Below are positions 3,959 through 63,779 of a DNA stretch of 64,000 nt, piece by piece. Source of the stretch: a bacterium (GTDB lineage: Bacteria; Patescibacteriota; Minisyncoccia; UBA6257; GWB1-50-10). A program made the translations under genes and the position numbers. Numbering within the stretch: position 1 is the stretch's first letter; every line of letters starts with the position of its first letter. The DNA is taken from positions 5,347 through 69,346 of the forward strand of contig JAKAGX010000001.1 of assembly GCA_021825465.1 (NCBI GenBank), in the 5' to 3' direction. Under the pieces are notes generated by a model. The model was not told the DNA's origin. It saw only the letters and a list, made by a program, of their open reading frames with translations, and ran no database searches.

Positions 3959-4067
3959 ATTGATGCCTCTCTTTTTTGAGTGATCAGATAATGGAAGATA
4001 GCAAAAAGAACAAAAACTCTATGGTTTTCAATATACCAGAAAATTGACAAAATGTCAATCCTCCAGC

Positions 4068-7752: not shown

Positions 7753-7772
7753 TGCCCACCATTATAGCCCTT

Positions 7773-12611: not shown

Positions 12612-13556
12612 CTACTGCACCGCAAACACGCCGATGTTTCCGGCGGCGGTTTTTTCCACTTTAACGATCCCCTTTTCGTCGGTCCGAAAAACCCGTACAC
12701 CGACCGCACCGAGTGCGGATACCGTCTCCGCCGACGGATGTCCGTAGGAATTTTTTCCGACTTCGATCACTGCAATGCTCGGAGAAACTATGCTGAAGAA
12801 TCTTTTCGACAACGACCCCCTCGAACCGTGATGAGCGACCTTCAAAACATCTACGCGACCGATGCGTCCGGCAAGCATTTCTTCGATCTTCAAACTCGCA
12901 TCGCTCATAAAGGCCGATTTTATATCTTCCGCATCGACCTCAATAACGATCGCCGAATCGTTCAGATCGCCTCCGGCAAGAAGCGCCTTATTGGGCGAAA
13001 GAACGCGAATTTCCGTTTTACCGACCATCATCCGGTCGCCTTCCGCAACGACGAGCGAAGCGACATTCTCTTCGTTTAAAATTTTTTTGAAAGCCTCGAA
13101 CGTTTCCGTCCCGCCGCTGACGCCGTTCCATAGAAATAAACCGACGCGATAGTTCTTTACGACATCCATAAGCCCGCCGAAATGATCGAATTCGGCATGC
13201 GTCATGATGACGACATCGAGAGAGCGATCAAGAGGGGGAAGGATCGCATCCAGCGATTCCAAAACCGCGGAGTTCGCCGGACCGCCGTCGATCAAAATCT
13301 TCGCTCCGCTCGCCGTCACAATAAGCTCGCTGTCCCCTTCGCCGACCGGCAGGAAATATTCGGCAAACGAACCTTCCCCGCCGACCGCACCGAAAGAAAA
13401 GATGCCGATCGCGCCGATAACCAAAAGAAGGGGCAGGAGCTTTTTAAAATGCCCGTCGACGAAGCCGGCGACGACCTTCAGTTCCTTTGCGCAATCCTTT
13501 TCTTTTTCCATACGATGAATGCAATGAGGCAGCCGTAATACGCCGCCGTAAGCCAT
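12612..13556 (-). CDS. ComEC/Rec2-type metallo-beta-lactamase domain protein (separate ORF)
   Basis: MBL motifs are 'LIVTASGAKILIDGG' and 'VVIMTHAEFDHFGG'. It has an N-terminal TM anchor. It overlaps the 3' end of the ComEC membrane-domain ORF by 79 nt in another frame. Confidence 0.7.
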   Translation of the reverse strand: MAYGGVLRLPHCIHRMEKEKDCAKELKVVAGFVDGHFKKLLPLLLVIGAIGIFSFGAVGGEGSFAEYFLPVGEGDSELIVTASGAKILIDGGPANSAVLESLDAILPPLDRSLDVVIMTHAEFDHFGGLMDVVKNYRVGLFLWNGVSGGTETFEAFKKILNEENVASLVVAEGDRMMVGKTEIRVLSPNKALLAGGDLNDSAIVIEVDAEDIKSAFMSDASLKIEEMLAGRIGRVDVLKVAHHGSRGSLSKRFFSIVSPSIAVIEVGKNSYGHPSAETVSALGAVGVRVFRTDEKGIVKVEKTAAGNIGVFAVQ

Positions 13557-14893
13557 AGACTGAACGGCAGTCGGACCATGGCATGCAACCCGCCAAAAAA
13601 TTCGATGGTTGCCGTCTCGAATTTAAGAAGCGGGAATGCAAGAAACGACACGCCGAGAGCGATCGTCTGCGACACGAATCCGAGGAGCGCTTCCGCAAAT
13701 CCGAATGCCATGGTCGCCGGTATCAAGCTTAAAACGAGGACGTTCGAAACGAGGGACAGCGGCGAAATCGACCCGAAATGCGCCGCAATGATCGGAAGAA
13801 CCGCCGCTTGGTCAGCAAACGTCGACGATACATTACCCTTCCAATCCATGAAACTCTTACCGGGTGACGGCCTCACATACATGATGCCGAGGAAGGCCGC
13901 GAACGACAGTTCAAAGCCGACGTCGAAAACGAGGAGTTTCGGGTTCGCGATCAACATAAAAAATGCGGCAAGCATAATGACGTTCCGCGAATCGAAGAAG
14001 CGGCCGCTCTCGGTCGCGAAGAGGACGAGGAACCCCATGATGGCCGCACGAACGACCGATGCTTCCGCTCCGGTCATAACGACAAAAAGAAAAATGGCGA
14101 ACGAGGTGGCGCCAAATGCCCATGGCCGCGGCAAAAAGAGCAAAAAGACGGCCATTGCGCCGATCACGACGAGCGATACGTTGTAACCCGAGAGCGCCAC
14201 AAGGTGCGTTGTGCCGCTCGATTGCATGGCGGCAGTGAAATCTTCCGAAAAACCGCCGCGGTAGCCGAGGAGGAGGCCGGACATGAACGCGCTTTCTTTT
14301 TCCGGCAGCGTTCTTTTGAACGTATCGATCACCCGATCTCTCACCCCGAACAAGAAACGGCGCAATCCGCCGCCGACAGACATCGAAACGATCTCCGGAA
14401 AATCCGATGTCCCGACAATCCCTTCTTTTGCGAGGTAATCGGCGTACCCGCCCGACGGCGGACGCTCCACCGTCCCTTTCAGCGTCAAAACGTCGCCGAC
14501 GGAGACCGATACATATCTCCGGAGCGTTATGAGTATTTTTCCGCCGCAGTCGAGACCGATCACGGCTTTCGTTGATGAATAATCCGATGTTTCCACGTCG
14601 ACGACCTTTCCTCCAAAGGTGCCGCCCGCGCCGCATGCAACGGCCGCCGTCGCTCTCAAATTCATGTCGAATGCTTCCGCATAAAACGCCCCGCCGAAGA
14701 CAACGGGAGAAAGAAAAAGAAAAACCAGATATTTCTTTTCTTGTTTCCAAAAGAAAAGTGCAGCGGATGTGATGGCTGAAAAAATGATGACGGCCAAAAT
14801 GATCCAGCCGGCATGGATACTTGCAAGGAAAATGCCGAAAATAAAAAACGCGATCCCGAAGAAAAGGACGTTGTACGCCGGCATTTCCCTCAT
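13478..14893 (-). CDS. comEC: ComEC/Rec2 DNA internalisation competence protein, membrane (competence) domain
   Basis: It is polytopic with 'LVALSGYNVSLV ... FLFVVMTGAEASVVRAAIMG', characteristic of the ComEC competence domain. Confidence 0.75.
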   Translation of the reverse strand: MREMPAYNVLFFGIAFFIFGIFLASIHAGWIILAVIIFSAITSAALFFWKQEKKYLVFLFLSPVVFGGAFYAEAFDMNLRATAAVACGAGGTFGGKVVDVETSDYSSTKAVIGLDCGGKILITLRRYVSVSVGDVLTLKGTVERPPSGGYADYLAKEGIVGTSDFPEIVSMSVGGGLRRFLFGVRDRVIDTFKRTLPEKESAFMSGLLLGYRGGFSEDFTAAMQSSGTTHLVALSGYNVSLVVIGAMAVFLLFLPRPWAFGATSFAIFLFVVMTGAEASVVRAAIMGFLVLFATESGRFFDSRNVIMLAAFFMLIANPKLLVFDVGFELSFAAFLGIMYVRPSPGKSFMDWKGNVSSTFADQAAVLPIIAAHFGSISPLSLVSNVLVLSLIPATMAFGFAEALLGFVSQTIALGVSFLAFPLLKFETATIEFFGGLHAMVRLPFSLWLTAAYYGCLIAFIVWKKKRIAQRN

Positions 14894-15036
14894 TATAGAG
14901 TTAAAAAGCTCTTTTCCTTTCCATACTTATCCCCCAAAACCTTGGCCCCCCGGTCTCCCTCAAAAATTCGAGGAGAGCGGGGGGCCTGCAATTTTTGAAG
15001 GAGAGCGGGGGGCGGAAGTCGGTGGGGGCGGAAAAC

Positions 15037-16236
15037 TCAGGCGATCACGCCGCCGCCGAGGAGTTCACCCTTTTTCGAATAGAAGACGGCAGACTGGCCC
15101 GGCGCGACAAATTTAACCGGATCGTCGAAGACGATCTTAAAATCCTTTCCCTCTTTCTCGAGGCGAGCCTTCGCGAGCGGCTGCCGGTAGCGCACTCTCG
15201 CATAAACTATCGATTCTCCGTTATCCATTATCCGCTCCACCGTATTCACCTGGCGGAGATTCATCTCTTTTTTGAAAAGTGCCGGATTGTCGTCCCCTTC
15301 CGCGACGATGAGCGTGTTCGTTTTCAAATCCTTTCCCGCAACGTAGTACGGTTTATGATCGGGATTTTTTACCTTCAAATCGACGCCAAGATGCCGCTGG
15401 CCGATGGTATAGAAATAAATCCCTTCGTGCTGACCCACGACATCACCTTCGGTCGTGAGGATTTCGCCCGGCTTTTCCGGCAAATACTGTTTTAAAAAAT
15501 CCTCAAGGTCCACCTGGCCCAAGAAACAAATTCCCTGCGAGTCCTTTTTCTCCGCCGTCGGGAGCCCCGCCTTCCGCGCAATTTCACGCACCTCGAGTTT
15601 TGTATGCCCGCCGATCGGAAACAAACAATATTTGAGCTGCTCCGGCGTCAATGTCCACAAAAAATACGACTGATCCTTATTTTTATCCTTCGCTTCCATC
15701 AGAGAATAATTTACGAGCTTCCCCCCACGTTCCGAGCGGAACGTCTCGGAGGCGCGGGCGGCTTGGTCTCCGGAGGAGCGAACGCGCCGAGAGTCGAGGC
15801 TGCTTTTTTCCGCTGGAGAAAAAAGACGGCCGGTTCCGCGAGAAATGCGGCGGGAAGCGAGTCGTACGTAGTGTCCGGTCGCGATGTAATCCGCCCCCGC
15901 TGCGAGCGCTTTCTCGAGGAACAAGCCGAATTTGATATCCTTGTTGCACATGACGTCGGGATTCGGCGTAATGCCGTCGCGATAGGCGGAAACCATGTAA
16001 TCCACGACGTTTTCTTTGTATTCCCGCTCCATGTCGAACACATAGAACGGGATACCGAGGTGTTCGGCAGCCCGCCGGGCGTCCAGGGCATCGCGTTCCG
16101 CGCAACCATCCACGTTGTACCCGCGGATATAGACGCCTGTCACTTCGCAGCCTTGCCTTTTCAGCAAATACGCGGCAACCGACGAATCCACTCCACCGGA
16201 CATTCCAACAAATACTTTATTCTTTGACTTGGCCAT
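15037..16236 (-). CDS. mnmA: tRNA 2-thiouridine(34) synthase MnmA with ~50 aa Ser/Arg-rich insertion
   Basis: It has the PP-loop 'VGMSGGVDSSVAAYLL', 'ATGHYVR' and 'KDQSYFLW'. There is an insertion between 'ATGHYVRL' and 'KDQSYFLW' relative to canonical MnmA. Confidence 0.85.
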   Translation of the reverse strand: MAKSKNKVFVGMSGGVDSSVAAYLLKRQGCEVTGVYIRGYNVDGCAERDALDARRAAEHLGIPFYVFDMEREYKENVVDYMVSAYRDGITPNPDVMCNKDIKFGLFLEKALAAGADYIATGHYVRLASRRISRGTGRLFSPAEKSSLDSRRVRSSGDQAARASETFRSERGGKLVNYSLMEAKDKNKDQSYFLWTLTPEQLKYCLFPIGGHTKLEVREIARKAGLPTAEKKDSQGICFLGQVDLEDFLKQYLPEKPGEILTTEGDVVGQHEGIYFYTIGQRHLGVDLKVKNPDHKPYYVAGKDLKTNTLIVAEGDDNPALFKKEMNLRQVNTVERIMDNGESIVYARVRYRQPLAKARLEKEGKDFKIVFDDPVKFVAPGQSAVFYSKKGELLGGGVIA

Positions 16237-26303: not shown

Positions 26304-26312
26304 ATGTTTATT

Positions 26313-28055
26313 TTACACCACCTCCGCGTTATAGCACTCTTCGCAGTAGACCGTTTCTGGCCGCTCGGGAGCGAATGCCGTCTCGAACTCGTTCGGGCAT
26401 TTCCCCCTGCCGTGGAAGTGGGTCGATGTATCGCACATGCAGGAGCGATGCCAAAGCCTGAGGGGCGTCCCCTGCTTCAGACGCTCGTAGTGCCGGCAGT
26501 TCGGGCAGAGATGCGGAAGCGGCAAATCCATCCTCCTCAAGAACTGCAACTCCGGAGCGATGATCCTGAACGCGCCTGTGCATTGCTCGCCGCACTTCCC
26601 TCCGTGAGGGCATTCGATGGTCTGATCCAGAATGTCGTCTTTTACGCCCTCAATATCATCGGGTAATTTGTCCGCTTTCACCGAAATCGCATAATCCTTT
26701 GCCGTTTCATTTCTCCAGGGATACTTCTCTTCCGCCGCTTGTTCCGCCGTCAGCGGGAAATACTCCTCAGCGATCGTCTCGTTGTACGCGAAGGGAGAGA
26801 TCTCGATCGGGAAGAACTCGCCGTATTTATATATTCTCCCCTTCTCGTCCGTATACGGCATCTCGCCCATCTGTTTCTTGATCTTCGGGAGAAGCGCTTC
26901 GTATTCCTCTTTCGAGTACTGCTTGTTCAGAATACAAAAATCTTTTTTCCTCACTCCGACGCACCCGAAAAGGTTGGATCCTCCCCGACAGTAATCCGAA
27001 TACTCTACGTTCACGATGTTTTCGTAGGTATTGGAGGAAAAGAAATTGCGGGAATCGTGATAAGCGACATTGACCCCCTCATAGCTCAGCTCCCCGCCGT
27101 CTCCCGCGCCGTGGAGATCCATGCAGTCCTTGATCTTCAGCGCCTGCGTGCAATACCGCAGGTTTTCGCATTCATCGATGTTGAACGACTTGAAAATATT
27201 CTTGGAATTGATGATGTGGTTGCCGCTCACGTTCACAACCTTACTCGTGAACGCAAACCTTTGGATGGAGCGTTTCTTTAATTCGATAAATTCGCTCTTA
27301 AGCGACTCAATAACCCTTGCACTTCCTAATCCCATTTCCCGCATCTTCCTTTCGTACTCCTCCTTGGTCAGCTGTTCGCCTCGGAATACATAGGACTTGT
27401 TTCTCAAATTGGATCCCATGAAACAGCTCTTGCATCCCGCGCAGTTGTACAGAAAATAAGAATCCATGCAGTCGCGGCAATTTTGCAGATAAGCGGAGTG
27501 GACCGCGTGATTGGTGTCCATGGATTCATAGCAGAACTCGGAATCCGTAACGACGTTCGAATCGAAAACGTCGCGATCGTGGAATGCCTTGTGGCTATAG
27601 GCGATATTCTCGGAATAGAAGGTCGATGGTGCCATGTAAACGTCCTTCGAGAGCCATGTGAAATTCGAATACGGTGCGTTCTGATTTTGAAGGCTCTCCA
27701 AGGCCAGACGGGGAACTTCCGCTAAAAGTTTTCGGAATTGTTCAAAGAACGGCTTCGAAAAATCGTACTCGCGGCCGTACGACATGACATCCCACGTATC
27801 CGAGAACCAACAATCATAGCAGTAAACTTTGAACGGCCTCTCTCCGGAATACATCGAGATGATGGATTTGCCGCAAAGATCGCACGTATCCTTGTACAAA
27901 CTGCGCTCGTTCCGAAACGACATCCGCCGCTGCCGCCGGCATTCCGGGCACCAGGTTGGCGGAGGAACGTTGATCCGTTCGTAGAAACTAAAATCCCCAG
28001 GCTCAACGACGAACTCCTTCTTGCAGTTTTGACAGATCTTTGTTTCAGCGTTCAT
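26313..28055 (-). CDS. Cys-rich zinc-ribbon repeat protein, array paralog 2
   Basis: The 580 aa ORF has the same architecture. Its start overlaps the stop of paralog 3 in an ATGA arrangement. Confidence 0.85.
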   Translation of the reverse strand: MNAETKICQNCKKEFVVEPGDFSFYERINVPPPTWCPECRRQRRMSFRNERSLYKDTCDLCGKSIISMYSGERPFKVYCYDCWFSDTWDVMSYGREYDFSKPFFEQFRKLLAEVPRLALESLQNQNAPYSNFTWLSKDVYMAPSTFYSENIAYSHKAFHDRDVFDSNVVTDSEFCYESMDTNHAVHSAYLQNCRDCMDSYFLYNCAGCKSCFMGSNLRNKSYVFRGEQLTKEEYERKMREMGLGSARVIESLKSEFIELKKRSIQRFAFTSKVVNVSGNHIINSKNIFKSFNIDECENLRYCTQALKIKDCMDLHGAGDGGELSYEGVNVAYHDSRNFFSSNTYENIVNVEYSDYCRGGSNLFGCVGVRKKDFCILNKQYSKEEYEALLPKIKKQMGEMPYTDEKGRIYKYGEFFPIEISPFAYNETIAEEYFPLTAEQAAEEKYPWRNETAKDYAISVKADKLPDDIEGVKDDILDQTIECPHGGKCGEQCTGAFRIIAPELQFLRRMDLPLPHLCPNCRHYERLKQGTPLRLWHRSCMCDTSTHFHGRGKCPNEFETAFAPERPETVYCEECYNAEVV

Positions 28056-29863
28056 ACAACTTCACTGTTATAGCAGGATTCGCAGTACACGATCTCTTTT
28101 CTCTCCGGCGCATACGGCGTCTCAAATTCACTCGGGCAACGATCGTTACCGTGAGTATGCTTGGAGAGGTTGGTATAAATGCCATTCTCTGATCTTTCGC
28201 CGACACATTGACACCGACGATGCCAGAGCTTGAGCGGCTTCCGCTGCTCTAAACGCTTAGCATGGCGACAGCTGAAGCAGAGGTGCGGCAATGGCAACCC
28301 CATCCGCCGGTAGAATGAGAGTTCCTGCGGGATGATCCTGAACGCCGCTGTGCACTGCTCGTTGCACTCCCCCCGGTGCGCACATTCGATGATCTCATCC
28401 ACGATCGAATCCTTCGCGTCATCTATGCTGTCGGGTGTATCGGCCTCCTTCATCGTCACCTGGTATTTTTTTTCTTCCGGCTCTTTCCACTTGAATCCGC
28501 GGCTCAGAGCGTCACTTTCATTCAACGGAAAATATTCTTGTGCGATCGTCTCATTGTAGACGAAGGGGCTAAGTTCCGGCGGGAAGAACTCGCCGTATTT
28601 ATAGATCCTCTCTTTCGAGTCAACATAGGGCATCTCGTTCATCTGCTCAACGATCCGGGGAATCAACTCTTCATATTCTTCTTTCGAGTACTGCTTGTTC
28701 AAAATGCAGTATTGTTTGTTCCGGAGACCCGCACACCCGAAGAGATTCGAGGAATCATAGCAGTTCTCCGAATAGGCCACATTGGCGTTGTTCCAGCTCA
28801 CATACGCAAATTTAGTGGAGGAATTAATGGCTCCGCCGATGATCTCATAAGAGAAAAACAAATTCCCTCCCACTTGCATGCAATCATAGTCGTTCTCGGC
28901 ATTCCATCCGCAAATGGTCAAATATTTGCCGTGTGAAGCCCCCACCCCTCCGCCGAATTCCGCGGAACTCGACGATCCGATGAAAAAACACATCCTCAGG
29001 TCATTGGAATTCTCAATGTCGTTCCCCGTCACGTTCTCGGATTTTGTGATGTGAGCGAATTTCATCGGCTGTGAGAGGATAAATGCCTTGAATTTTCCTT
29101 TGTATTCCTCAAGGATCTTGTACGATTTTAAATCGACTTCCGAGAATCTCCTTTCATATTCCTCCTTGGTGAGCTGCTCGTTGAACCAGCAGTATTGTTT
29201 GTTCCGAAGGCCCGCACACCCGAAGCAGTTCGAACATCCCCGGCAGTCATAAAGGAACCATGAGTTGAGACAATTGTCGCAATAGCGGCCGAAAGCAACG
29301 TGATATGATTTTGTGCTGTCCAGGAGTTCATAGCACTTTTCGCTTTCGTTTATGAAAAAGGTATCCACGCTGTCCTTGCTGTAGAGAGCGGTATTGGTAT
29401 ACATGACGTCTTCGCTGTTGTATCCGCCGATCTCCATATAGCAATTCTTGTGATTACTGACATTGTTGCAGTACTCGCTCCCGACGGAGTTCCGGTTCAT
29501 CATACTGATGCGCGGCACTTTGAGCATCAAATCGTGAAACTGCTCGAAGAAGGGCCTGGAAAAATCGTAATCCCGCCCGAAATCCATCGGATTCCAGCCG
29601 TCGGACCACCAAAATTTCGCATCATAGACCGTGAACGGCGAATTGTTCGGATAGAGGGAAATGATGTCCTCCGCATGCCCCGGGGCGCCACACTTTCGTT
29701 TGTAGAGCATCTTTTCGTTCCGCCACGTCATTCTTCTCATTGACCGGCATTCCGGGCACCACGTGGGCGGTGGGACCTGTATCCTCTCGTAGAATGCGAA
29801 ATCCTCCGGATCAATCACGAATTCCTCTTTGCAGTTTTGGCAGGTTCTGGTTTCTTGTTTCAT
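28052..29863 (-). CDS. Cys-rich zinc-ribbon repeat protein, array paralog 3
   Basis: The 603 aa ORF has the same architecture. It has ATGA overlaps with both neighbours. Confidence 0.85.
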   Translation of the reverse strand: MKQETRTCQNCKEEFVIDPEDFAFYERIQVPPPTWCPECRSMRRMTWRNEKMLYKRKCGAPGHAEDIISLYPNNSPFTVYDAKFWWSDGWNPMDFGRDYDFSRPFFEQFHDLMLKVPRISMMNRNSVGSEYCNNVSNHKNCYMEIGGYNSEDVMYTNTALYSKDSVDTFFINESEKCYELLDSTKSYHVAFGRYCDNCLNSWFLYDCRGCSNCFGCAGLRNKQYCWFNEQLTKEEYERRFSEVDLKSYKILEEYKGKFKAFILSQPMKFAHITKSENVTGNDIENSNDLRMCFFIGSSSSAEFGGGVGASHGKYLTICGWNAENDYDCMQVGGNLFFSYEIIGGAINSSTKFAYVSWNNANVAYSENCYDSSNLFGCAGLRNKQYCILNKQYSKEEYEELIPRIVEQMNEMPYVDSKERIYKYGEFFPPELSPFVYNETIAQEYFPLNESDALSRGFKWKEPEEKKYQVTMKEADTPDSIDDAKDSIVDEIIECAHRGECNEQCTAAFRIIPQELSFYRRMGLPLPHLCFSCRHAKRLEQRKPLKLWHRRCQCVGERSENGIYTNLSKHTHGNDRCPSEFETPYAPERKEIVYCESCYNSEVV

Positions 29864-31581
29864 ACAATCTCTGCATTAAAACACTGCTCGCAATAGATGA
29901 CTTCTTTTCTCTCCGGCGCGTACGAGGTTTCGAACTCGTTAGAGCATCTTCCCTCTCCGTGGAAATGGGTTTTCTTGTCGCACATGCACGAGCGATGGTA
30001 GAGCTTCGGGGGGTTGACGCTCCGAAACCGCTCCCCGTGGCGGCACTCAAAGCACTTGCGGGGCAGGGCCGCATTTATCTTTTTCAAAAAATCGTATTCT
30101 TTCCCAATGATCTGGTACGGCTTACCACACGAGGAACACTCAATGATTTCTCTCGTAATTGAGTCCGGCGTTTCCTTGATATCATCCGGCAGCTCGCCCG
30201 CTTTCTTGGTAATCGTGTGGCGCGGAGCATCCGCCTCGCGCCATGCAAAACCGCTCTCGGATGCTCTTTCCCTCGTGAGCGGGAAATAATCGTTCGCCAC
30301 CGTCTCGTTGTAGGCAAAAGGTGAAAGCTCAGTCGGAAAAAATTCACCGTAGCCGTACGTTCTCCCTCTCCCGTCCACGTACGGTACTTTCCCCATCTGC
30401 TCGATGATCTTCGGAATTAATGTTTTGTACTCTTCTTTGGAATACTGCTTGTTCAGGACGCAGTATTCCCGATTCCGGAGACCGATGCAACCGAAGAGAT
30501 TACTCGAGCCGTGACAATTCAAAGCATAACGGGCATCATTGGTACCGTAGACCGATCCCACAAAGTATTGTCGAGACGCCTCGACGCCGGAATCGAAGCC
30601 CTCATAGAGCAGCTCGCAATTTCCCCCCACGCCATAGCCGTCGTACGTATCAGTGGCAGAAAGGGCATTGGTGAGATATTTGCAGTCCTTCACGTTGCCG
30701 TACGAATCAAAACAAAAGCGCGAATCGGCGACATTATACAGCCGGTCGCCGGTCACATTGTTACAACTCACGAATGTCGCGTATTTCCTGATGGCGCCGA
30801 GCTTAAGGACCTCGAATTTTTTCTTCGTCTCCTCAAGCTGCCGGAAACTTCCCAAGTCGATCGCCGCCACTCTTTTCCCGTACTCCTCCCTGCTCAACTG
30901 CTCATTGAAGAAGCAGTAGGACTTATTCCGCAAATTCGTACACCCGAAGCAATCCGTGCATCCCTTGCAACCGAAGAGGAACCAAGAATCGGCGCAACCT
31001 TCCGATTCGGAGGAAAAGTGGACGTTAAACAGTTTGCTGCTCCCGACATCATATGAACACAGGCTGCAATTATTGATCGCAAAGGCGTCAACGATATCTT
31101 TTGACGCGTTGCAACGGGAGGCATAGCACACATTTTCGCCGTCCCACGATGCCGAGACGAGGTACGCATCTTTATACTCGCCGACATAATTCACATAACT
31201 GGAGTTCACTGTCCGCGCATTGAAGACCGCCGGCATCGGCACTTTCTTCAGAAGCTCCGCGAACTGCCCGAAGAATGGCCTCGAAAAATCATAGTCAGCA
31301 CCGAAAGCGAGCGGATCCCATGCGTCGCTCCACCAATAATCCCGATCGTATACCGTTATGCCCGAATCGGGCGCAAAACAGGAGATAACCGCCTTCCCCG
31401 TCGCCGCACATTTATTCCTGAAGAGCGTCCGTTCGTTCCGCCAGGCAAACCGACGCTGCATCCGGCATTCCGGGCACCAGGTTGGCGGTGGGACCTGTAT
31501 CCTCTCGTAGAATGCGAAATCCTCCGGTTCGATCGTGAACTCCTTCTTGCAGTTCTGGCACCGTCGCGTTTCCGAGGTCAT
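29860..31581 (-). CDS. Cys-rich zinc-ribbon repeat protein, array paralog 4
   Basis: The 573 aa ORF has the same N- and C-terminal signatures. It is preceded by the 114 nt structured intergenic element. Confidence 0.85.
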   Translation of the reverse strand: MTSETRRCQNCKKEFTIEPEDFAFYERIQVPPPTWCPECRMQRRFAWRNERTLFRNKCAATGKAVISCFAPDSGITVYDRDYWWSDAWDPLAFGADYDFSRPFFGQFAELLKKVPMPAVFNARTVNSSYVNYVGEYKDAYLVSASWDGENVCYASRCNASKDIVDAFAINNCSLCSYDVGSSKLFNVHFSSESEGCADSWFLFGCKGCTDCFGCTNLRNKSYCFFNEQLSREEYGKRVAAIDLGSFRQLEETKKKFEVLKLGAIRKYATFVSCNNVTGDRLYNVADSRFCFDSYGNVKDCKYLTNALSATDTYDGYGVGGNCELLYEGFDSGVEASRQYFVGSVYGTNDARYALNCHGSSNLFGCIGLRNREYCVLNKQYSKEEYKTLIPKIIEQMGKVPYVDGRGRTYGYGEFFPTELSPFAYNETVANDYFPLTRERASESGFAWREADAPRHTITKKAGELPDDIKETPDSITREIIECSSCGKPYQIIGKEYDFLKKINAALPRKCFECRHGERFRSVNPPKLYHRSCMCDKKTHFHGEGRCSNEFETSYAPERKEVIYCEQCFNAEIV

Positions 31582-31619
31582 ATATCTATATTACCTTAAA
31601 ACAATCCCCAAGGGAGTAA

Positions 31620-31689
31620 GCCGGATACTCCCGCGAAGGCTAAGAGCTTTAGCGTCGCCCCGGAGGGAGCCTCTGCGGGGGTATCCGGC
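31620..31689. repeat. Structured intergenic repeat element, copy A (long hairpin with conserved loop)
   Basis: The outer stem gccggatactcccgc/gcgggggtatccggc is 15 bp with one G-U pair. The loop contains the conserved 'cgcgaaggctaaga ... ccccggag ... agcct' and an inner hairpin gctaa-gagct-ttagc. Confidence 0.55.
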
Positions 31690-31695
31690 GAACTC

Positions 31696-33462
31696 CTATA
31701 CTATCTCCTTTTGGTAGCATTCCTCACAGTAGATGAGATCGGGGCGGTCAGGCGCATAAGGCGTCATTACTCTATTCCCACAGGGACTATTTCCATGATC
31801 GTGGAGAACCGTATTCTTATAGCCGTTCTTCGCCGGTCCGCCGCCTTGGCACTCGCATGTCCGCTCAAAAAGCCGCCGCGGGAGGAGCTTCCGCATCCTC
31901 GCTTTGTGCCGCTCGAGGGGAGACAGTCGCGGGATCGGCAATCCCCGCCTCCGATAGAATTGGAGTTCCATCGGGATCACTCGGTATGGCTTCCCCGACG
32001 CTTCGCATTTCAGTATCTTTTCCACGATGTCGTCTTTCACGTCTTTGATATCGTCCGGTATCGCGTAATCGGAAATTCGAATGCCGGAATCGGCCTCGTA
32101 GTCGCTCCATGGATACCCTTTTGCTTCCGCCTCGCTCTTCGAGAGCGGGTAGTAGTCCATGGCAGCCGTTTCATTGTAACCGTAGGGTGAAAGCTCGATT
32201 GGGAAGAATTCGCCGTAGCGATATACTCGTCCGTTCGCGCCGGCATACGGCATCTCATCCATGTGTTTTCTGATCTTCTGAACCAATGCCTCGTACTCCT
32301 CCTTTGGATACTGTTTGTTCAGGATGCAGTATTCACCGTTCCGGAGATTGGCGCACCCGAAGCAATTCTTGCTATCGATGACCGAGTAGCAGTACTCGAC
32401 GTCAGAGGAATGAATTTTTCGCAACGGGTCGCCGCTCATACAAAAGTTCAGGAATTTCGAGTTATACACTCCCCCGCCGCTTGCGGACTCATAGGTCAAT
32501 TCGGATGCACCATGGGCGCTCTCGTCATAGCTGTCCTTGATCCAGCCTGCGATATAAAGGTACTTTGAATCCTCCACTTCTTCGCCGTTCCAACAATCCT
32601 TGGCGTTTTTTGAATTCGAAAGATAGTTCCCCGTCGAATTCACTGATTTGAAAACGCTTGCGAACCGGTGCGGCATTGTGAACCAGAACTTTTCCGATCG
32701 CTCTCTCAGTTCGCTGAATCCCTTCCACGACCCGAGCGGATTCTCGGCGATGAATTTTTGATACTCTTCTTTCGTGTGTTCCTCGTTGAAAATGCAGTAT
32801 TGCTTGTTCCGGAGGCCGGCTGAGCCGAAGCAGTCATGGCAGTTCCGGCAGTCGAAACAAAAGGTCAGATTTTGGGAATCGAAACAATCGACGGAACCGG
32901 TAACGGCATAACAGCGCTCGCAATCAACGTTTCCATACCCCAATTCACTGTTCAGAAACCACCAGTTATCAAAACTGTCTTTAGAATACAGATCGTACGT
33001 ATTGTATGCCGAATCCTCGTTGTAGTGGCCGCCGACATTCAGGTAGCAGTTCTTGTCATCGGTTTCCTGGTTCACCCAGTCGCTATTTACCGTGTTGAGA
33101 TTCAGGATGGAAACATGCGGCGTCGCATACAAAAGTTCCTTGAACTGCTCGAAGAACGGCTTCGAAAAGTCGTACTCGCGGCCGTATTGCTTACCGTTCC
33201 ATCTGTCGGACCACCAACACTCTTTGCAGTACGCCGGGTACGGCTTGTCCGGTGAAACGCGCGAAACGACCTCTTTGCCGCAGAGATCGCACTTCCGCTT
33301 GGAGAGTGCGCGCTCGTTCCGCCAAGCGATCCGCCTTTCTTCCCGGCATTCGGGGCAAAATGTCGGCGGCGGAACCTTGATCTTCTCGTAGAATGCGAAA
33401 TCCTCAGGCTCGATGGTGAATTCCTTTTTACAGTTCTGACACTGTCGAGTTTCTAAACCCAT
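31696..33462 (-). CDS. Cys-rich zinc-ribbon repeat protein, array paralog 5
   Basis: The 588 aa ORF has the same architecture. Confidence 0.85.
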   Translation of the reverse strand: MGLETRQCQNCKKEFTIEPEDFAFYEKIKVPPPTFCPECREERRIAWRNERALSKRKCDLCGKEVVSRVSPDKPYPAYCKECWWSDRWNGKQYGREYDFSKPFFEQFKELLYATPHVSILNLNTVNSDWVNQETDDKNCYLNVGGHYNEDSAYNTYDLYSKDSFDNWWFLNSELGYGNVDCERCYAVTGSVDCFDSQNLTFCFDCRNCHDCFGSAGLRNKQYCIFNEEHTKEEYQKFIAENPLGSWKGFSELRERSEKFWFTMPHRFASVFKSVNSTGNYLSNSKNAKDCWNGEEVEDSKYLYIAGWIKDSYDESAHGASELTYESASGGGVYNSKFLNFCMSGDPLRKIHSSDVEYCYSVIDSKNCFGCANLRNGEYCILNKQYPKEEYEALVQKIRKHMDEMPYAGANGRVYRYGEFFPIELSPYGYNETAAMDYYPLSKSEAEAKGYPWSDYEADSGIRISDYAIPDDIKDVKDDIVEKILKCEASGKPYRVIPMELQFYRRRGLPIPRLSPLERHKARMRKLLPRRLFERTCECQGGGPAKNGYKNTVLHDHGNSPCGNRVMTPYAPDRPDLIYCEECYQKEIV

Positions 33463-33528
33463 ACTCTTATTCTATATCAGTTCCCAGCTTTAGCGAGCGG
33501 GGCGCCTACCGGTGCCCCGCCCGCATAG

Positions 33529-35313
33529 TCATACTTTCTCTTGCTGATAACACTCGGCACAGTAAATGATGTCCGGTTTCTCCGGAGAGAACGATGTTTC
33601 AAACTCGTTCGGGCAATGACCTTCGCCGTGGGCATGTTTTGAGAGGTTCGTATAAGTGCCGTTTTCCGACTTCGCTCCGCCACACTGGCATTTCCGATGC
33701 CACAGCTTGAATGGATTCCTTAATTTCAGGCGATTGGCGTTCCTACAGTTGGGACAAAGACGGGGCAAGGCCAAATTAAACTTGCGGTAAAAATCCAATT
33801 CATCCGCGATGATCTTGAAAGCCCCGGTACACTGATCGGTGCACTCTCCCTTATGTGCACAGCCGATCACTTCTTTCAAAATATCGTCAGCGACATCTTT
33901 GACATGGTCGGGCAGGTTCTCCGCTTCCACCGTGACAGTATGTTCTTTCTTTCCCAATTCCTTCCAGGGGTATTTTTGGACAGCCGCTTCCTCCTTTTTC
34001 AAGGGGAAATATTCCTCGGCAATCGTCTCGTTGTATGCGAAGGGCGAGATTTCACAGGGGAAAAATTCGCCATAAGCGTATTTTCTGCCGGCGGCATCGA
34101 CGTACGGCATGGCATTCATGTGCTCGACGATCTTCGGGACGAGGGCTTCATACTCTTCTTTGGAATATTGCTTGTTCAGAATGCAATATTCCCGGTTTCG
34201 AAGACCGACGCATCCGAAGAGATGAGAGGAAAAATGGCAACAGTAAGCATACTCCACATCATGATTGCCGTGAGCATAGACGGTGAATTTGTAGCGTGCA
34301 GCATTGATCCCCGAGTCAACGCCTTCATACAAAAGTTCGCCAATGCCGCCAAAACCGTACCCATCGTACGAATCCTTGAGGCCCTGGGCATGGATCGCAT
34401 ATTTTGAATCCTCGGTTTCGCCGTAACCGTCAAAGCAGAATTTGCAGTTTTTTGCATCGCCGACCTGGTCGCCCGTCGTGTCGACCGAACGGATGAGCGA
34501 CGCAAATTCCCGCGGGAATTTTCTGTCGAATTCGTCGAATTCTTTCTTGAATGCTTGGAGATTTTTATAACTTCCGAAATCGTATTTTACCCGTTCTTTT
34601 TGATACTCATCCTTCGAGTAAGGCTTGTTGAAAATATGATATCTCTTGTTCCTTAAATTGACGCACCCCAGCGATTCATTCACATTGGTGCAATGCCGCA
34701 AGAATGCCGAATCCATGCTCTCCCCCGCATCGAACGAGAAAAACACGCGATTGATATTGTCGCAGAGCGTATCATCGTAGCAAAGTTCGCATTTCAAGAC
34801 ATTGTAGAGATCCATCGAATCCTTTCCTTCCATAATGCCGCTTGAAAAAGAAACGTTTTCATTCATATATGACGCATAAAGGAGATAACAATCCTTGCAG
34901 TCGGCATTGTGGTTCCCGTAATCGCTCCGCGTAACGTTCGTATTCGCGAGATTCGGCAACGGCGCTCGGTGCAAGAGATCTCGGTACTGCTCGAAGAACG
35001 GCTTCGAAAAGTCATACTCGCGGCCCGATGCAAGATTGTCCCATTTGTCGCTCCACCAATAATCCCGGTCATAGACGACCATGTTGCTTTCGGGCGAAAA
35101 CATCGTGAGAAATTCCTTTCCCGTCGCCGCACACTTTCCTTTATAAAGGGTCCGTTCGTTTCTCCATATAAATCTCCTCTGCATCCTGCAATCCGGGCAA
35201 AATGTCGGCGGCGGGACCCGGATCTTCTCGTAAAACGCAAAATCGTCGGACTCGACCGTGAATTCCTTCTTACAATTCTGACATTGCCTTTTTTCCCTTT
35301 CTGTCATGCTCAT
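33529..35313 (-). CDS. Cys-rich zinc-ribbon repeat protein, array paralog 6
   Basis: The 594 aa ORF has the same architecture. Confidence 0.85.
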   Translation of the reverse strand: MSMTEREKRQCQNCKKEFTVESDDFAFYEKIRVPPPTFCPDCRMQRRFIWRNERTLYKGKCAATGKEFLTMFSPESNMVVYDRDYWWSDKWDNLASGREYDFSKPFFEQYRDLLHRAPLPNLANTNVTRSDYGNHNADCKDCYLLYASYMNENVSFSSGIMEGKDSMDLYNVLKCELCYDDTLCDNINRVFFSFDAGESMDSAFLRHCTNVNESLGCVNLRNKRYHIFNKPYSKDEYQKERVKYDFGSYKNLQAFKKEFDEFDRKFPREFASLIRSVDTTGDQVGDAKNCKFCFDGYGETEDSKYAIHAQGLKDSYDGYGFGGIGELLYEGVDSGINAARYKFTVYAHGNHDVEYAYCCHFSSHLFGCVGLRNREYCILNKQYSKEEYEALVPKIVEHMNAMPYVDAAGRKYAYGEFFPCEISPFAYNETIAEEYFPLKKEEAAVQKYPWKELGKKEHTVTVEAENLPDHVKDVADDILKEVIGCAHKGECTDQCTGAFKIIADELDFYRKFNLALPRLCPNCRNANRLKLRNPFKLWHRKCQCGGAKSENGTYTNLSKHAHGEGHCPNEFETSFSPEKPDIIYCAECYQQEKV

Positions 35314-62037: not shown

Positions 62038-62059
62038 AAAACTTCTTCGGCGCGATGAC

Positions 62060-62118
62060 GGCATTTCCGCGAAGGCTAAGACTTGAGCCTCCCCGGAGAC
62101 AGCCTGAGCGGGAATGCC
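62060..62118. repeat. Structured intergenic repeat element, copy B
   Basis: The outer stem ggcatttccgc/gcgggaatgcc has one G-U pair. Its sequence differs from copy A but complementarity is preserved. The same loop core 'cgcgaaggctaaga ... ccccggag ... agcct' is present. It lies between the tgt start and the FAD-oxidase stop. Confidence 0.55.
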
Positions 62119-62135
62119 GACCGAGCGCCGATCCC

Positions 62136-63779
62136 CTACTTCTTCATGTGCTCCGCTGCGTATTGGAGCGTATCCCCCACTTTCTTCCCCGGATTGAAAA
62201 TGCCATCCGGATCGAAGATCTTTTTCGTCTCTGTAAAGAGCGAAATGATCTTTTCACCGTACATTTCCTTGAGGTACGGCGTCCGGATGATCCCGTCGTT
62301 ATGCTCGGCAGTGATGGAACCGCCGTATTTGAAGATCAATTGATAGACCTGTTCCGTCACCTCCGGGATGATCTTCCGCGTTTCCGGATCGTCCATATGC
62401 ACGAGCGGGATGATGTGGAAATTCCCGTTCCCCGGGTGGCCGGCGATCGTATAGACCAGTTTGTCCTTGTATTTGTCGAGGATCGCGTTCACCTGCGGCA
62501 ATATTTCGGGCATATATTTCGGCTCGACAATGATGTCATCGATGAAGGCAGCGGCATCCATTCCCTTCACGTGGCTGTGGATCAAGGCGAAGCTTTGCCG
62601 GCGGATGGTCCAGTACTCTTCTGATTCGGCATCGCTCTTCACGTTCCGGACCAAGAGCTTGTATTTTGTGGCTGCCGCGACGATCTCCTGGGCTTTCCGC
62701 TCCAATTCTTTTTCGTCGTCGGCCGTTACGGAAACGAGAATGATCATTTTCGGCATTCCTCCGCTCCGGAGGAGCATCCCGATCTCGGGAATGAACTCGA
62801 ACATAAGCTTGAAAAGGCCGCCTTTCATGAGCTTCATCAGGGTCGGGAAAAAGCGGATCGCAAGACCCATCGTTTTGTCGTCGTACGATTCGATGCTTTC
62901 GGGTTTCAAGGCCAAAAGGTCGTTCACGAGATCCGGCACGGGATCGAGCGTCTTCGAAAAGATGACGACAAGCCGGGTGTATTTCGGCGCAGGGACCAAG
63001 CGGAGGCGAGCTGCCGTCAAAAGCCCGAAGGTCCCCTGCGACCCCACGATCACTTTCGTGATATCGAAGGTTTTTTTGTCCCACACGTTCCACAAATAGT
63101 AGCCGGCGGAGTTTTTGCTGACCTTCGGCTTCGCAGCCATAATCGTTTCATAGTTGTCGTTGATCAACTGATAGAGTTTCCGGTAAACATCGCCTTCGAA
63201 GCCTTGTTCCTTGAGCTTTGCTTCGAGTTTTTCCCCCGATAAAGGCTCGAGATAATGTTCTTTGCCGTCGGCGAGAACGATATGAAGGCCCTCGACGAAA
63301 TTTTCCGTTTTACCGTACTGCAGGGTCAGTTCGCCGCCGGAGTTGTTATTTACCATTCCTCCGAGTGCGCACAGGTCCTTCGATGCCGGATATGCCGGAT
63401 AAAGCAGATTTTTCGCCTTCAGCTCCCGCTCCAAATCGCGGAAGTAAACGCCGGGCTCCACGACGACATATCCTTCCTTTTCATTGATCTCTCGGACGTG
63501 GTTGAAATACTTCGTGAATTCGACGATGACCGATTCGTTCAAGGGCCCGCCTGACATATCGGTCCCTGCAGATCGGCCGGTCACGGATATTTTTTCGCCT
63601 GCCTTCTTTTTCGCTTCCGCGAATTGAACGAGCTTCTCGACATCTTCCTTGTCTTTCGGAAAAACGACGGTTTCCGGCCGTACGTTGAAGATCGAATAAT
63701 CATGACTGTAATCCGCCAAGGTTTTCTCGTCGTTTGCTACATCTCCCTTTACAATTTTTTTTAATTCATCTATGAGCAT
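62136..63779 (-). CDS. FAD-linked oxidase (GlcD/D-lactate dehydrogenase-like)
   Basis: The FAD_binding_4 motif is 'VTGRSAGTDMSGGPL'. The C-terminal 'GGSITAEHNDGIIRTPYL ... IFDPDGIFNPGK' is an FAD-oxidase_C signature. Confidence 0.75.
   Translation of the reverse strand: MLIDELKKIVKGDVANDEKTLADYSHDYSIFNVRPETVVFPKDKEDVEKLVQFAEAKKKAGEKISVTGRSAGTDMSGGPLNESVIVEFTKYFNHVREINEKEGYVVVEPGVYFRDLERELKAKNLLYPAYPASKDLCALGGMVNNNSGGELTLQYGKTENFVEGLHIVLADGKEHYLEPLSGEKLEAKLKEQGFEGDVYRKLYQLINDNYETIMAAKPKVSKNSAGYYLWNVWDKKTFDITKVIVGSQGTFGLLTAARLRLVPAPKYTRLVVIFSKTLDPVPDLVNDLLALKPESIESYDDKTMGLAIRFFPTLMKLMKGGLFKLMFEFIPEIGMLLRSGGMPKMIILVSVTADDEKELERKAQEIVAAATKYKLLVRNVKSDAESEEYWTIRRQSFALIHSHVKGMDAAAFIDDIIVEPKYMPEILPQVNAILDKYKDKLVYTIAGHPGNGNFHIIPLVHMDDPETRKIIPEVTEQVYQLIFKYGGSITAEHNDGIIRTPYLKEMYGEKIISLFTETKKIFDPDGIFNPGKKVGDTLQYAAEHMKK

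What the first reader, a model, noticed from the sequence alone, without database searches (positions are those of the whole stretch)
31582..31695. Structured intergenic repeat present twice with compensatory stem changes (candidate ncRNA or REP-like element)
The 114 nt gap between paralogs 5 and 4 contains a long hairpin at 31620-31689. Its 15 bp outer stem encloses a loop with the core 'cgcgaaggctaaga ... gcc ... ccccggag ... agcct ... gcggg' and an inner hairpin. A second copy at 62060-62118, in the tgt and FAD-oxidase intergenic region, has the identical loop core. Its outer-stem sequence is different but still fully complementary, ggcatttccgc/gcgggaatgcc versus ggatactcccgc/gcgggggtatcc. 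Covariation that preserves pairing is the hallmark of selection on RNA or DNA secondary structure. Both copies lie between co-directional minus-strand genes. They could be processing or attenuation sites, small ncRNAs or a palindromic repeat family.
Basis: seen in the sequence. Interest (0 to 1): 0.55.

Follow-up and report, generated by a model that had tools for sequence, protein, structure and literature searches.

The report
Hairpin repeat element of Patescibacteria
The two look-alike hairpins belong to a previously undescribed family of about 90-base insertion elements spread through tiny-genome (Patescibacteria) bacteria; they sit right after stop codons or in frame inside essential genes, and their tip sequence is kept almost unchanged at the DNA/RNA level, for a reason not yet known.

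Summary
Both window hairpins (31620-31689, 62059-62119) share a core, have different but complementary stems, and match no Rfam family.

They are two somewhat decayed members of a large family. I collected 88 distinct copies from Patescibacteria genomes and metagenomes, and none from viral contigs. Each copy has a variable 12-19 bp stem and a covarying 5-bp helix. Each also has a nearly invariant asymmetric apex, UAAGACUU-GGGCGUCGCCC-CGGAGAC.

Copies lie 0-6 nt after the stop codon of an opposite-strand gene, or in frame inside conserved genes (MnmA, UvrC, RecG, cysteine desulfurase).

Close relatives differ by presence or absence. One clean empty/filled pair shows an 8-bp target duplication, and both window copies carry similar flanking repeats.

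Inside mnmA the core's synonymous sites are frozen (0.16 bit) while flanking ones are saturated (1.37 and 0.84 bit). The few changes preserve the hairpin, not the protein.

Best reading: a mobile MITE/RPE-like palindromic element whose hairpin and apex are selected at nucleic-acid level. The enzyme that moves it, the strand that acts and any host function remain unknown. A free-standing ncRNA gene is not supported.

The parts
31596..31695 (+). Copy 1, the whole inserted segment (100 nt) between the two flanking direct repeats. It is diverged from the family consensus.
   Evidence: Covariance-model hit of 74.7 bits, E = 1.6e-20. Coordinates.
31620..31689 (+). Copy 1 hairpin proper. The stem is 31620-31635 with 31674-31689. 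The 5-bp helix AGGCT/AGCCT is 31637-31641 with 31668-31672. The apex is 31642-31667.
31586..31595 (+). Left flanking direct repeat of copy 1 (CTATATTACC).
   Evidence: It matches the right repeat at 8 of 10 positions. It is interpreted as a target-site duplication by analogy with the L027/window empty-site pair.
31696..31705 (+). Right flanking direct repeat of copy 1 (CTATACTATC). Its first three bases are the reverse complement of the stop codon of gene 31696-33462 (-).
62049..62137 (+). Copy 2, the whole inserted segment (89 nt). The apex is decayed, with a 3-nt deletion and a broken inner hairpin.
   Evidence: Covariance-model hit of 70.1 bits, E = 4.2e-19. Orthologues are L099 (canonical core) and L100 (same decay).
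62059..62119 (+). Copy 2 hairpin proper. The stem is 62059-62070 with 62108-62119. The 5-bp helix is 62073-62077 with 62101-62105. The apex is 62078-62100.
62041..62048 (+). Left flanking direct repeat of copy 2 (ACTTCTTC).
   Evidence: Exact 8-nt repeat. It is imperfect in orthologues L099 and L100.
62138..62145 (+). Right flanking direct repeat of copy 2 (ACTTCTTC). It starts at the last base of the reverse-complemented stop codon of the FAD-oxidase gene 62136-63779 (-).
26306..26322 (+). Empty site, with the junction at 26312|26313. The close relative JAMCYI01 (L027) has a 116-nt insertion here that contains the element, flanked by TTACACTA on both sides.
7766..7771 (-). Second empty site. 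JAMCYI01 (L016:7118-7201) carries the element here, and the flanks are 85-96% identical.
   Evidence: The boundaries are not clean.

Best explanation
The two hairpins are copies of a dispersed, non-coding, palindromic insertion element. Its behaviour resembles MITEs and Rickettsia palindromic elements (RPEs), and it is specific to Patescibacteria of the Parcubacteria/Paceibacteria type.

Shown:
- Architecture: an optional outer GC/GA.AG/GCC motif; a variable 12-19 bp stem; usually a tandem G.A 2x2 loop; a covarying 5-bp helix; and an almost invariant asymmetric apex, UAAGACUU-[4-bp hairpin]-CGGAGAC.
- Copies are gained or lost between genomes whose flanks are 85-96% identical.
- One insertion is bracketed by an 8-bp duplication of the target. 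Both window copies carry 8-10-nt flanking direct repeats whose right member begins at the stop codon.
- Retained copies sit directly after the stop codon of a gene on the opposite strand, or in frame in surface loops of conserved proteins, where they are translated.
- The hairpins and apex are conserved at nucleotide level even where that changes the protein.

Inferred:
- The element is inserted at a staggered cut by an unidentified trans-acting enzyme that recognises the conserved apex of the folded strand.
- In these gene-dense genomes only insertions at gene ends or in tolerant protein loops survive.
- The stems stay paired through G-U intermediates, or through template switching within the palindrome.

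In this window:
- Copy 1 enlarged a spacer of roughly 4 nt between two tandem paralogues to 114 nt. It must be read through by the operon transcript, because only about 30 nt separate it from the next start codon.
- Copy 2 is an old, decaying copy shared with relatives.
For: - Family size and distribution: 32 true hits in 12 Patescibacteria MAGs, 54 metagenome loci, 88 distinct copies by covariance model, none in viral contigs, and no Rfam family.
- Structure: 95.5% of pair cells are paired against 75.6% in shuffles and 32-49% when the partners are slid; 19 of 25 pairs show double changes; the 5-bp helix switches C-G to G-C (53 vs 33 copies). The inner hairpin covaries: GGGCGUCGCCC to GGGUGUCACCC (L033, L090), and GGGC/GCCC to GGCC/GGCC in type-B relatives.
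- Mobility: L027 vs window 26312|26313 shows a 116-nt insertion with TTACACTA on both sides and a single copy in the empty site. Two further sites differ between the window and JAMCYI01. UvrC carries the element in JAJYWR01 but not in JAMCYI01. L098 lacks copy 2 while L099 and L100 have it. Flanking repeats at both window copies.
- Context: 42 of 84 copies have an opposite-strand stop codon within 30 nt of the 3' side; 20 are in-gene antisense and 4-6 in-gene sense. The host genes have complete C-termini.
- Translation: the frame and the absence of stop codons are kept in 17 MnmA lineages, and all length differences are multiples of 3. The insert adds 18 aa at a beta-hairpin tip relative to PDB 2HMA.
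- Nucleotide-level selection: third-codon-position entropy is 0.16 bit in the nine core codons against 1.37 and 0.84 bit in adjacent conserved motifs. The rare core changes are hairpin-compensatory and change the amino acid.
- Stepwise change on the + strand: C-G, then U-G, then U-A across L099, L100 and the window.
Against: - No transposase or other partner was identified.
- The ends are not defined: there are no conserved terminal inverted repeats next to the flanking repeats, and the distance from repeat to hairpin differs among the three cases.
- Family-wide, exact flanking repeats of 7 nt or more are no commoner than in a shuffled-partner control (26 vs about 20 of 93). The target-duplication claim therefore rests on one verified pair plus the two window copies.
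- Most copies have unrelated stems (modal Hamming distance 12 of 16). Simple copy-and-paste from a few master copies does not predict this.
- A purely selfish element should decay once fixed. The mnmA copy has nevertheless kept its apex across lineages whose synonymous sites are saturated. This points to a host-level function, or to concerted evolution that I could not test.
- The strand that folds better is usually antisense to transcription (79 of 94 stems; G-U 133 vs 63). I cannot explain this.
- Most loci were fetched with exact-match patterns, which biases the collection towards intact cores.
Confidence: 0.55

Rival explanations
1. It is a host cis-acting RNA element at mRNA 3' ends. Read on the gene strand (the reverse complement), the hairpin directly after the stop codon would terminate transcription or protect the 3' end from exonucleases. 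The conserved apex would bind a conserved protein or RNase. In-gene copies would be tolerated by-products.
For: - In 42 of 84 copies the stop codon of the opposite-strand gene lies within 30 nt.
- Many copies have a run of A on their 5' side, giving GGCUCGCUUUU after the hairpin on the gene strand. The model consensus has A-rich 5' and U-rich 3' flanks, like a bidirectional terminator.
- At one orthologous convergent-gene site the window has a plain hairpin where JAMCYI01 has the element.
- The apex is under purifying selection.
Against: - The window copies have no U-tract within 8 nt, and no terminator consensus was found.
- Copy 1 lies about 30 nt upstream of the next cistron's start, so efficient termination there would silence that gene.
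- The gene-strand RNA folds worse: tandem U.C mismatches replace G.A, and C.A replaces U.G (79 of 94 stems favour the other strand).
- In-gene copies occur in both orientations, and the mnmA copy is conserved although no 3' end is needed there.
Confidence: 0.2
2. It is a family of small structured non-coding RNA genes transcribed from the + strand, antisense to the neighbouring genes. The apex would be a protein- or RNA-binding module and the stem a mere scaffold.
For: - The + strand is the better-folding strand: G-U 133 vs 63, and mean ddG -4.5 kcal/mol.
- On that strand there are two tandem G.A motifs in the stable CGAG context.
- One stem position shows 14 U-G and no C-A among 36 copies.
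- Covariation is strong.
- A/T-rich, -10-like sequences often precede the 5' end (impression only).
Against: - No promoter consensus at the window copies, and no terminator for such an RNA.
- Copies are embedded in frame in coding genes in both orientations.
- Copies are gained and lost between close relatives with flanking repeats.
- No Rfam relative. No expression data are available.
Confidence: 0.1
3. It is a DNA-level genomic signal, for example an uptake, recombination, repair or replication-associated site recognised as a folded single strand. Host selection would maintain it and place it wherever the dense genome tolerates it.
For: - The nucleotide sequence is conserved independently of reading frame and orientation.
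- About 12 of ~38 independent host loci are DNA replication or repair genes: UvrA, UvrB, UvrC, UvrD, RecG (twice), Nth, DnaE, LigA, RNase HII, SMC and a T4SS coupling protein. This recalls the reported bias of Neisseria and Haemophilus uptake sequences towards genome-maintenance genes (from my own knowledge; not checked here).
- Tandem G.A and G.T pairs are also stable in DNA hairpins (my own knowledge).
Against: - The few copies seen per MAG (at most 11 exact-pattern hits per genome; 2 in this 64-kb window) look too sparse for an uptake signal.
- The enrichment was not tested against a genome background.
- Rapid gain and loss between close relatives argues against an indispensable site.
- Orientation relative to GC skew is only weakly biased (52 vs 35).
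Confidence: 0.1
4. In-gene copies are removed from the mRNA by hairpin-triggered RNA excision and religation, or are bypassed by the ribosome. The apex would then be conserved because failed removal would inactivate the host gene, as with introns and inteins.
For: - The apex is strongly conserved inside an important gene.
- Precedents exist elsewhere: excision of inverted-repeat transposons from animal mRNAs (PMC12779559), and translational bypass of GC-rich hairpin inserts in yeast mitochondria (my own knowledge).
Against: - All seven independent in-gene contexts are in frame and free of stop codons.
- Length changes among 17 MnmA lineages are all multiples of 3.
- No out-of-frame split genes were seen: ORFs do not run into intergenic copies.
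- Most copies are intergenic, where no excision is needed.
Confidence: 0.05

Closest known systems
Rickettsia palindromic elements (RPE)
   Same: - Short (about 100-150 bp) palindromic repeats in a reduced-genome bacterium.
- Found in intergenic DNA, next to RNA genes and in frame inside conserved protein genes, where they add a surface peptide.
- The mobilising enzyme is unknown.
   Different: - No sequence relationship, and a different phylum.
- Here only the asymmetric apex is conserved while the arms differ between copies.
- The apex is under demonstrable nucleotide-level selection inside a coding gene.
- Intergenic copies show a strong orientation and position preference: antisense, directly after a stop codon.
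MITEs such as Correia/ERIC/BOX-type elements
   Same: - Non-coding, about 100 nt, hairpin-forming as RNA, dispersed and co-transcribed with neighbouring genes.
- Presence/absence polymorphism, and a target-site duplication in at least one case.
   Different: - MITEs are defined by conserved terminal inverted repeats matching a parent IS.
- Here the termini are not conserved, no parent IS is known, and the conserved part is internal.
REP/BIME elements with RAYT transposases
   Same: Extragenic palindromes at 3' ends of genes and between convergent genes, proposed to affect termination, mRNA stability and DNA topology.
   Different: - REPs are 20-40 nt, carry a GTAG or CGTC tag at one end, are sequence-conserved within a genome, occur in hundreds of copies and are strictly extragenic.
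- None of these features is met here.
Rho-independent (intrinsic) terminators
   Same: A GC-rich hairpin close to the stop codon. Many family members have flanking A and T runs.
   Different: - A 36-nt conserved apical module, 2x2 G.A loops, and occurrence inside coding sequence.
- The window copies lack a U-tract.
Integron attC sites
   Same: A folded single strand with variable sequence but conserved pairing, located between co-directional genes.
   Different: - attC sites conserve the ends (R''/R' boxes, GTTRRRY) and vary in the centre, which is the opposite of this element.
- No R boxes are present.

Membership tests
Any Rfam 15 RNA family | Covariance-model score at or near the family's gathering threshold | tested here: not met
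   No gathering-level hit in the window. E-value scans of both window copies, a consensus copy and a type-B copy returned only generic miRNA-precursor hairpin noise at 10-26 bits against thresholds of 50-100.
Rickettsia palindromic element-like (in-frame palindromic insertion element) | The same repeat occurs in intergenic DNA and in frame inside conserved protein-coding genes | tested here: met
   Found in MnmA (two sites), UvrC, RecG and cysteine desulfurase. The frame and open reading are preserved. The insert maps to a beta-hairpin tip relative to PDB 2HMA.
Rickettsia palindromic element-like (in-frame palindromic insertion element) | Sequence homology to RPE-1 to RPE-8 | not tested
   No RPE sequences were available in the tools. 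The GC-rich core and the Patescibacteria host make homology unlikely.
MITE | Target-site duplication flanking the element, with an empty site in a relative | tested here: inconclusive
   One verified case: TTACACTA, L027 vs window 26312|26313. Both window copies have 8-10-nt flanking repeats. The family-wide repeat excess is not significant.
MITE | Conserved terminal inverted repeats shared with an autonomous IS that encodes the transposase | tested here: not met
   The sequences adjacent to the flanking repeats differ among the three cases. Stems are mostly unrelated between copies. No parent IS was found in the loci held. One rve transposase gene neighbours a copy in L014 but shows no shared ends.
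REP/BIME | A 20-40-nt palindrome with a GTAG or CGTC tag at one end, strictly extragenic, with high copy number | tested here: not met
   The element is about 90 nt. There is no GTAG tag at the ends. It occurs inside genes. At most 11 exact-pattern hits per MAG.
Intrinsic terminator | A GC-rich stem followed within 0-2 nt by a U-tract on the transcribed strand | tested here: not met
   No terminator-like site at either window copy. Many other family members do have flanking A or T runs, so this fails for the window copies only.
Integron attC | R''(RYYYAAC) and R'(GTTRRRY) boxes at the ends of the folded strand | tested here: not met
   Neither motif occurs on either strand around either copy.
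tRNA-elbow-docking double T-loop module (RNase P J11/12-J12/13, T-box Stem I apex, L1 stalk) | Two T-loops with invariant AG..A and UG..A residues | tested here: not met
   The apex has UAAGA and AGACA (type A) or AGCGC (type B), which does not fit the consensus in PMC3664808. The word match to E. coli RNase P turned out to lie in P5/J5-15, not in the T-loop module (alignment). A CPR RNase P RNA from L054 has different sequences there.
Hammerhead ribozyme | A three-way junction with CUGAUGA and GAAA cores and a cleavage-site strand | tested here: not met
   A subfamily has cgcGAAG...CUGAUGAGcgg, but only two helices meet there. No Rfam hammerhead hit was obtained for the copies scanned; no copy of this subfamily was itself scanned against Rfam.

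The most novel reading that the evidence does not exclude
The invariant apex would not merely be a handle for a transposase. It would be a functional nucleic-acid module kept by host-level selection wherever it sits, including inside the reading frames of mnmA, uvrC and recG. In that reading it is a genome-wide cis signal read on the folded antisense strand. Candidates are a recognition site for a conserved Patescibacteria protein acting in DNA uptake, recombination or repair, or in RNA fate. The protein sequence would be sacrificed to keep the hairpin.
Probability: 0.2. Interest if true: 0.85.

Novelty: new variant of a known kind. Interest (0 to 1): 0.6.

Why it matters
- Patescibacteria make up a large share of bacterial diversity, have minimal genomes, and almost nothing is known about their mobile DNA or non-coding elements.
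- This family shows that even these genomes carry an active palindromic insertion element. It reshapes spacers between genes and adds peptides to core enzymes such as MnmA, UvrC and RecG. This may account for some of the lineage-specific inserts seen in their proteins; I tested this only in MnmA.
- The unusual conservation pattern gives a concrete handle for finding the unknown partner protein. The pattern is a frozen asymmetric apex on free-running stems, kept even at synonymous sites of a coding gene and at the expense of the amino-acid sequence.
- The same pattern offers a clean natural example of selection on nucleic-acid structure overriding protein-level selection.
- Practically, the covariance model marks these inserts for genome annotation. 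It would help avoid calling them ncRNA genes, or missing host genes as happened for the RNase P RNA in L036.

Tried and rejected
1. Known RNA families: Rfam at gathering and E-value thresholds on four representatives gave nothing but hairpin noise. ARAGORN found no tRNA or tmRNA.
2. RNase P specificity-domain / double T-loop mimicry. I recalled GGUAAGA...CCCGGAGCA from E. coli M1 RNA. The Rfam alignment and PMC3664808 showed that the second word belongs to P5/J5-15 and that the T-loop consensus (AG..A, UG..A) is not met. Dropped.
3. Hammerhead-like reading of the GAAG/CUGAUGAG subfamily: only a two-helix internal loop. Dropped.
4. Core inserted into the loop of a pre-existing terminator hairpin. 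At the orthologous site, window 1047-1080 has a plain hairpin, but its stem is unrelated to the element's stem in L016. Dropped.
5. Stem arms copied from the target: no similarity in UvrC. Dropped.
6. Copy 2 truncated the FAD-oxidase and created a new stop codon. Homologues all end at ...HMKx, so the C-terminus is native. Dropped.
7. Family-wide target-duplication statistic: not above control.
8. Sigma-70 promoter and intrinsic terminator scans at both copies: none found.
9. Viral contigs: no copy.
10. A peptide search for the element-encoded motif failed, probably because my query repeated its own words. One protein search was wasted.
11. attC boxes and GTAG tags: absent.
12. The larger insert in the window's own MnmA is not a dispersed repeat among the loci held.

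Full report
**1. The observation**

The sequence is as described.
- Copy 1 has a 16-bp stem (31620-31635 with 31674-31689) and an outer 6-bp helix.
- Copy 2 has a 12-bp stem (62059-62070 with 62108-62119).
- Both share CGCGAAGGCTAAGA, CCCCGGAG, AGCCT and GCGGG.
- The composite pattern occurs twice against 0.00 expected.
- Both strands fold far better than shuffles. For the + strand, copy 1 gives -55.6 kcal/mol (z = -5.6) and copy 2 gives -37.8 kcal/mol (z = -4.0).
- Each stem holds a U-G pair that would be a C-A mismatch on the other strand.
- The flanking genes are on the minus strand, as stated.
- There is no tRNA and no Rfam family at any threshold.

**2. It is a large family**

- A pattern scan of one genome per species returned 35 loci. 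Of these, 32 are real, all in Patescibacteria MAGs, with up to 11 per MAG.
- Between the fixed words, the free positions were invariant in 31 of 33 copies. The consensus 36-mer is AAGGCTAAGACTTGGGCGTCGCCCCGGAGACAGCCT, while every copy has a different stem.
- A second scan fixed the middle 21-mer instead and found 54 metagenome loci. In these the 5-bp helix covaries: AGGCU/AGCCU, AGGGU/ACCCU, GGGCU/AGCCC and others.
- Viral contigs held none.
- A covariance model built from the first alignment finds only the two copies in the window and 88 distinct copies overall.
- On those 88 copies, 95.5% of pair cells are paired, against 75.6% in shuffles and 32-49% for slid partners. Nineteen of 25 pairs show double-sided changes. 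This alignment is fitted to the model, so it leans towards the structure.
- The inner 4-bp hairpin covaries as well (L033, L090).
- A diverged 'type B' subfamily has the apex GGUAAGACUUGG(G/C)C.AGCG(C/G)CCCGGAGC on an A/U-rich lower helix.
- The invariant parts are therefore the two loop strands, UAAGACUU and CGGAG(A/C).
- The window copies score 70-75 bits against 85-105 bits for typical copies, so they are somewhat decayed.

**3. Where the copies sit**

- In the first set, the neighbour on the 3' side of the element was on the opposite strand in 29 of 34 cases. Its stop codon was typically 0-6 nt away.
- On 84 distinct copies with enough flank:
  - 42 have an opposite-strand stop codon within 30 nt of the 3' side;
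  - 14 have a same-strand stop codon at the 5' side;
  - 20 lie inside an ORF antisense, of which 17 are orthologous MnmA copies;
  - 4-6 lie inside an ORF in sense;
  - 11 are in other contexts.
- The abutting genes are ordinary housekeeping genes with complete C-termini, including UvrB, L11, Nth, PilB, RF, RNase J, YchF, RNase HII, UvrD, SMC and FtsX.
- In-gene copies are in frame in:
  - MnmA after ATGHYxR and again before RVRYRQP;
  - UvrC before RIEGYDISN;
  - RecG between the DEQH and SATPIPRT motifs;
  - a cysteine desulfurase.
- The same protein site can hold the element in either orientation and in different frames. There is therefore no common peptide.
- Relative to the solved MnmA structure 2HMA, the insert adds 18 residues at the tip of a beta-hairpin.
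- Among the 17 MnmA lineages with the insert no stop codon occurs, and all length differences are multiples of three. The insert is therefore translated.

**4. Gain and loss**

The window's genome is a close relative of MAG JAMCYI01, with flanks 85-96% identical.
- At window 26312|26313 the site is empty. JAMCYI01 (L027) has a 116-nt insertion that contains the element, with TTACACTA on both sides, while the window has one copy (TTACACCA).
- Two more sites differ between the two genomes. Window 7766-7771 is empty, and window 1047-1080 has an unrelated plain hairpin.
- UvrC carries the element in JAJYWR01 but has an unrelated 48-nt linker in JAMCYI01.
- Copy 1 is flanked by CTATATTACC and CTATACTATC. 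Copy 2 is flanked by ACTTCTTC on both sides.
- In all three cases the right-hand repeat starts at the reverse-complemented stop codon. That explains why the element abuts the stop.
- Caveat: across the family, exact flanking repeats are no commoner than in controls. The sequence between repeat and hairpin is not conserved.

**5. Orthologues of copy 2**

- L099 (88% protein identity) has the canonical core and the stem GGTACCTCCGC/GCGGAGGTGCC.
- L100 (96%) has the window's decayed core. Its 5' arm is GGCATTTCCGC against an unchanged 3' arm, which gives two U-G pairs.
- The window has the 3' arm GCGGGAATGCC, which restores U-A pairs.
- This is a direct stepwise series C-G, then U-G, then U-A, and it passes through wobble pairs on the + strand.
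- L098 (95%) has no element but carries a different AT-rich inverted-repeat spacer.

**6. Selection at nucleotide level**

- MnmA homologues were collected by protein similarity only. Sixteen of the 120 closest carry this insert.
- I fetched the DNA for eight of them.
- Across 17 lineages, third-codon-position entropy is 0.16 bit in the nine core codons (VSGATPKSY). It is 1.37 and 0.84 bit in the neighbouring conserved motifs GADYIATGHY and KDQSYFLW.
- The few core changes alter the protein while keeping the hairpin: GCG ACG to GTG ACA, which is GGGCGTCGCCC to GGGTGTCACCC in the element's orientation.
- Among the eight unbiased sequences, five have the exact 21-mer and three carry such changes.
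- The stems track the protein phylogeny, so the insert is inherited vertically. The apex is therefore constrained in place, or repeatedly homogenised.

**7. Which strand**

- The strand I call + (the window's + strand) folds better in 79 of 94 stems, with mean ddG -4.5 kcal/mol.
- G-U pairs number 133 on the + strand against 63 on the reverse strand.
- On the + strand the two 2x2 loops are tandem G.A in the CGAG context. On the gene strand they are U.C mismatches.
- Yet the + strand is usually antisense to the adjoining or host gene.
- No promoter or terminator consensus lies at the window copies.
- I cannot reconcile these facts. A selection filter against placing the stronger hairpin in the mRNA is one possibility.

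**8. Interpretation**

- The best-supported reading is a non-autonomous palindromic insertion element with RPE/MITE-like behaviour. Its folded apex is the recognised part, and only harmless insertions survive.
- The rivals are listed with their tests: a host 3'-end RNA element, a + strand ncRNA, a DNA-level signal, and RNA excision.
- The frozen apex inside mnmA is the main fact that a purely selfish model does not explain.
- Literature searches found no description of this element.

**9. Limits**

- Most loci were retrieved with exact patterns.
- No whole genomes, expression data or partner protein were available.
- Copy number per genome and orientation relative to replication are unmeasured. 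GC skew gives only 52 vs 35.

Noticed in passing
window 15690-15865 (inside mnmA, 15037-16236, minus strand): The window's own MnmA carries a different GC-rich insert of about 55 aa (RLASRRISRGTGRLF...SETFRSERGGKL) at the same beta-hairpin tip where other lineages carry the element. It folds into a branched hairpin and is shared with L039 and L045, but it is not repeated elsewhere in the loci held.
   Followed up: partly
MnmA homologues P0001-P0120: The tip of this MnmA beta-hairpin is an insertion hotspot in Patescibacteria. At least five unrelated insert types occur there: this element, the RLASRRIS type, K/N-rich types such as KIQNSKFKIQN, the SPEFPISNYQF...KIENLLKIKNYKL type, and the TSHWGIG...NPIGY type. 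Several look like translated palindromes.
   Followed up: no
L009:3117-3211, L088:12693-12785, L058:4709-4804 and 1985-2080, L043:5595-5689: These are a diverged 'type B' relative of the element. The loop strands are the same (UAAGACUU, CGGAGC), the inner hairpin has a 4-nt loop containing UAGC or AAGC, and the lower helix is A/U-rich (GAAAAAGUG/CACUUUUUC). They occur in the same genomes as type A.
   Followed up: partly
Host loci of about 38 independent copies: Roughly a third of the genes that carry or abut the element act in DNA replication or repair: UvrA, UvrB, UvrC, UvrD, RecG (twice), Nth, DnaE, LigA, RNase HII, SMC and a T4SS coupling protein. MnmA, a cysteine desulfurase and Tgt, all tRNA-modification enzymes, also appear. 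No background test was done.
   Followed up: no
L036:3900-3988 next to an RNase P RNA gene (about 3990-4370, minus strand) and tRNA 3763-3835: One copy sits between the terminator of the RNase P RNA gene and a tRNA gene, where relative L054 has a short spacer. In the same call, Rfam reported RNase P RNA in L054 but not in L036 at gathering score.
   Followed up: partly
window 1047-1080 and 14935-14995: These are plain GC-rich hairpins at gene ends. The first lies between convergent genes and has the tip GCGAGC. The second lies between mnmA (15037-16236) and the neighbouring gene 13478-14893, with a CGAA....UGAG loop. They resemble the element's stem without its apex. The first occupies the site where JAMCYI01 has the element.
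   Followed up: partly
L098:2148-2280: In a 95%-identical relative, the FAD-oxidase/tgt spacer holds a different AT-rich inverted-repeat sequence (AAATCCTAA...TTAGGATTT) instead of the element. This suggests that other palindromic insert families use the same kind of site.
   Followed up: no
window 28052-35313: The window contains a tandem array of paralogous genes of about 570-600 aa, rich in cysteine motifs (N-termini ...CQNCKKEFTIEPEDFAFYE...). Adjoining genes range from a 4-nt overlap to a 66-nt spacer, and the related junction at 26312 has an 11-nt spacer. Copy 1 is the only element in the array. JAMCYI01 has one at a different junction of the array.
   Followed up: partly
L095:689-777 and 1223-1311: One MnmA gene (P0017, 411 aa) carries two copies of the element, at site 1 and at site 2, both antisense.
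   Followed up: no
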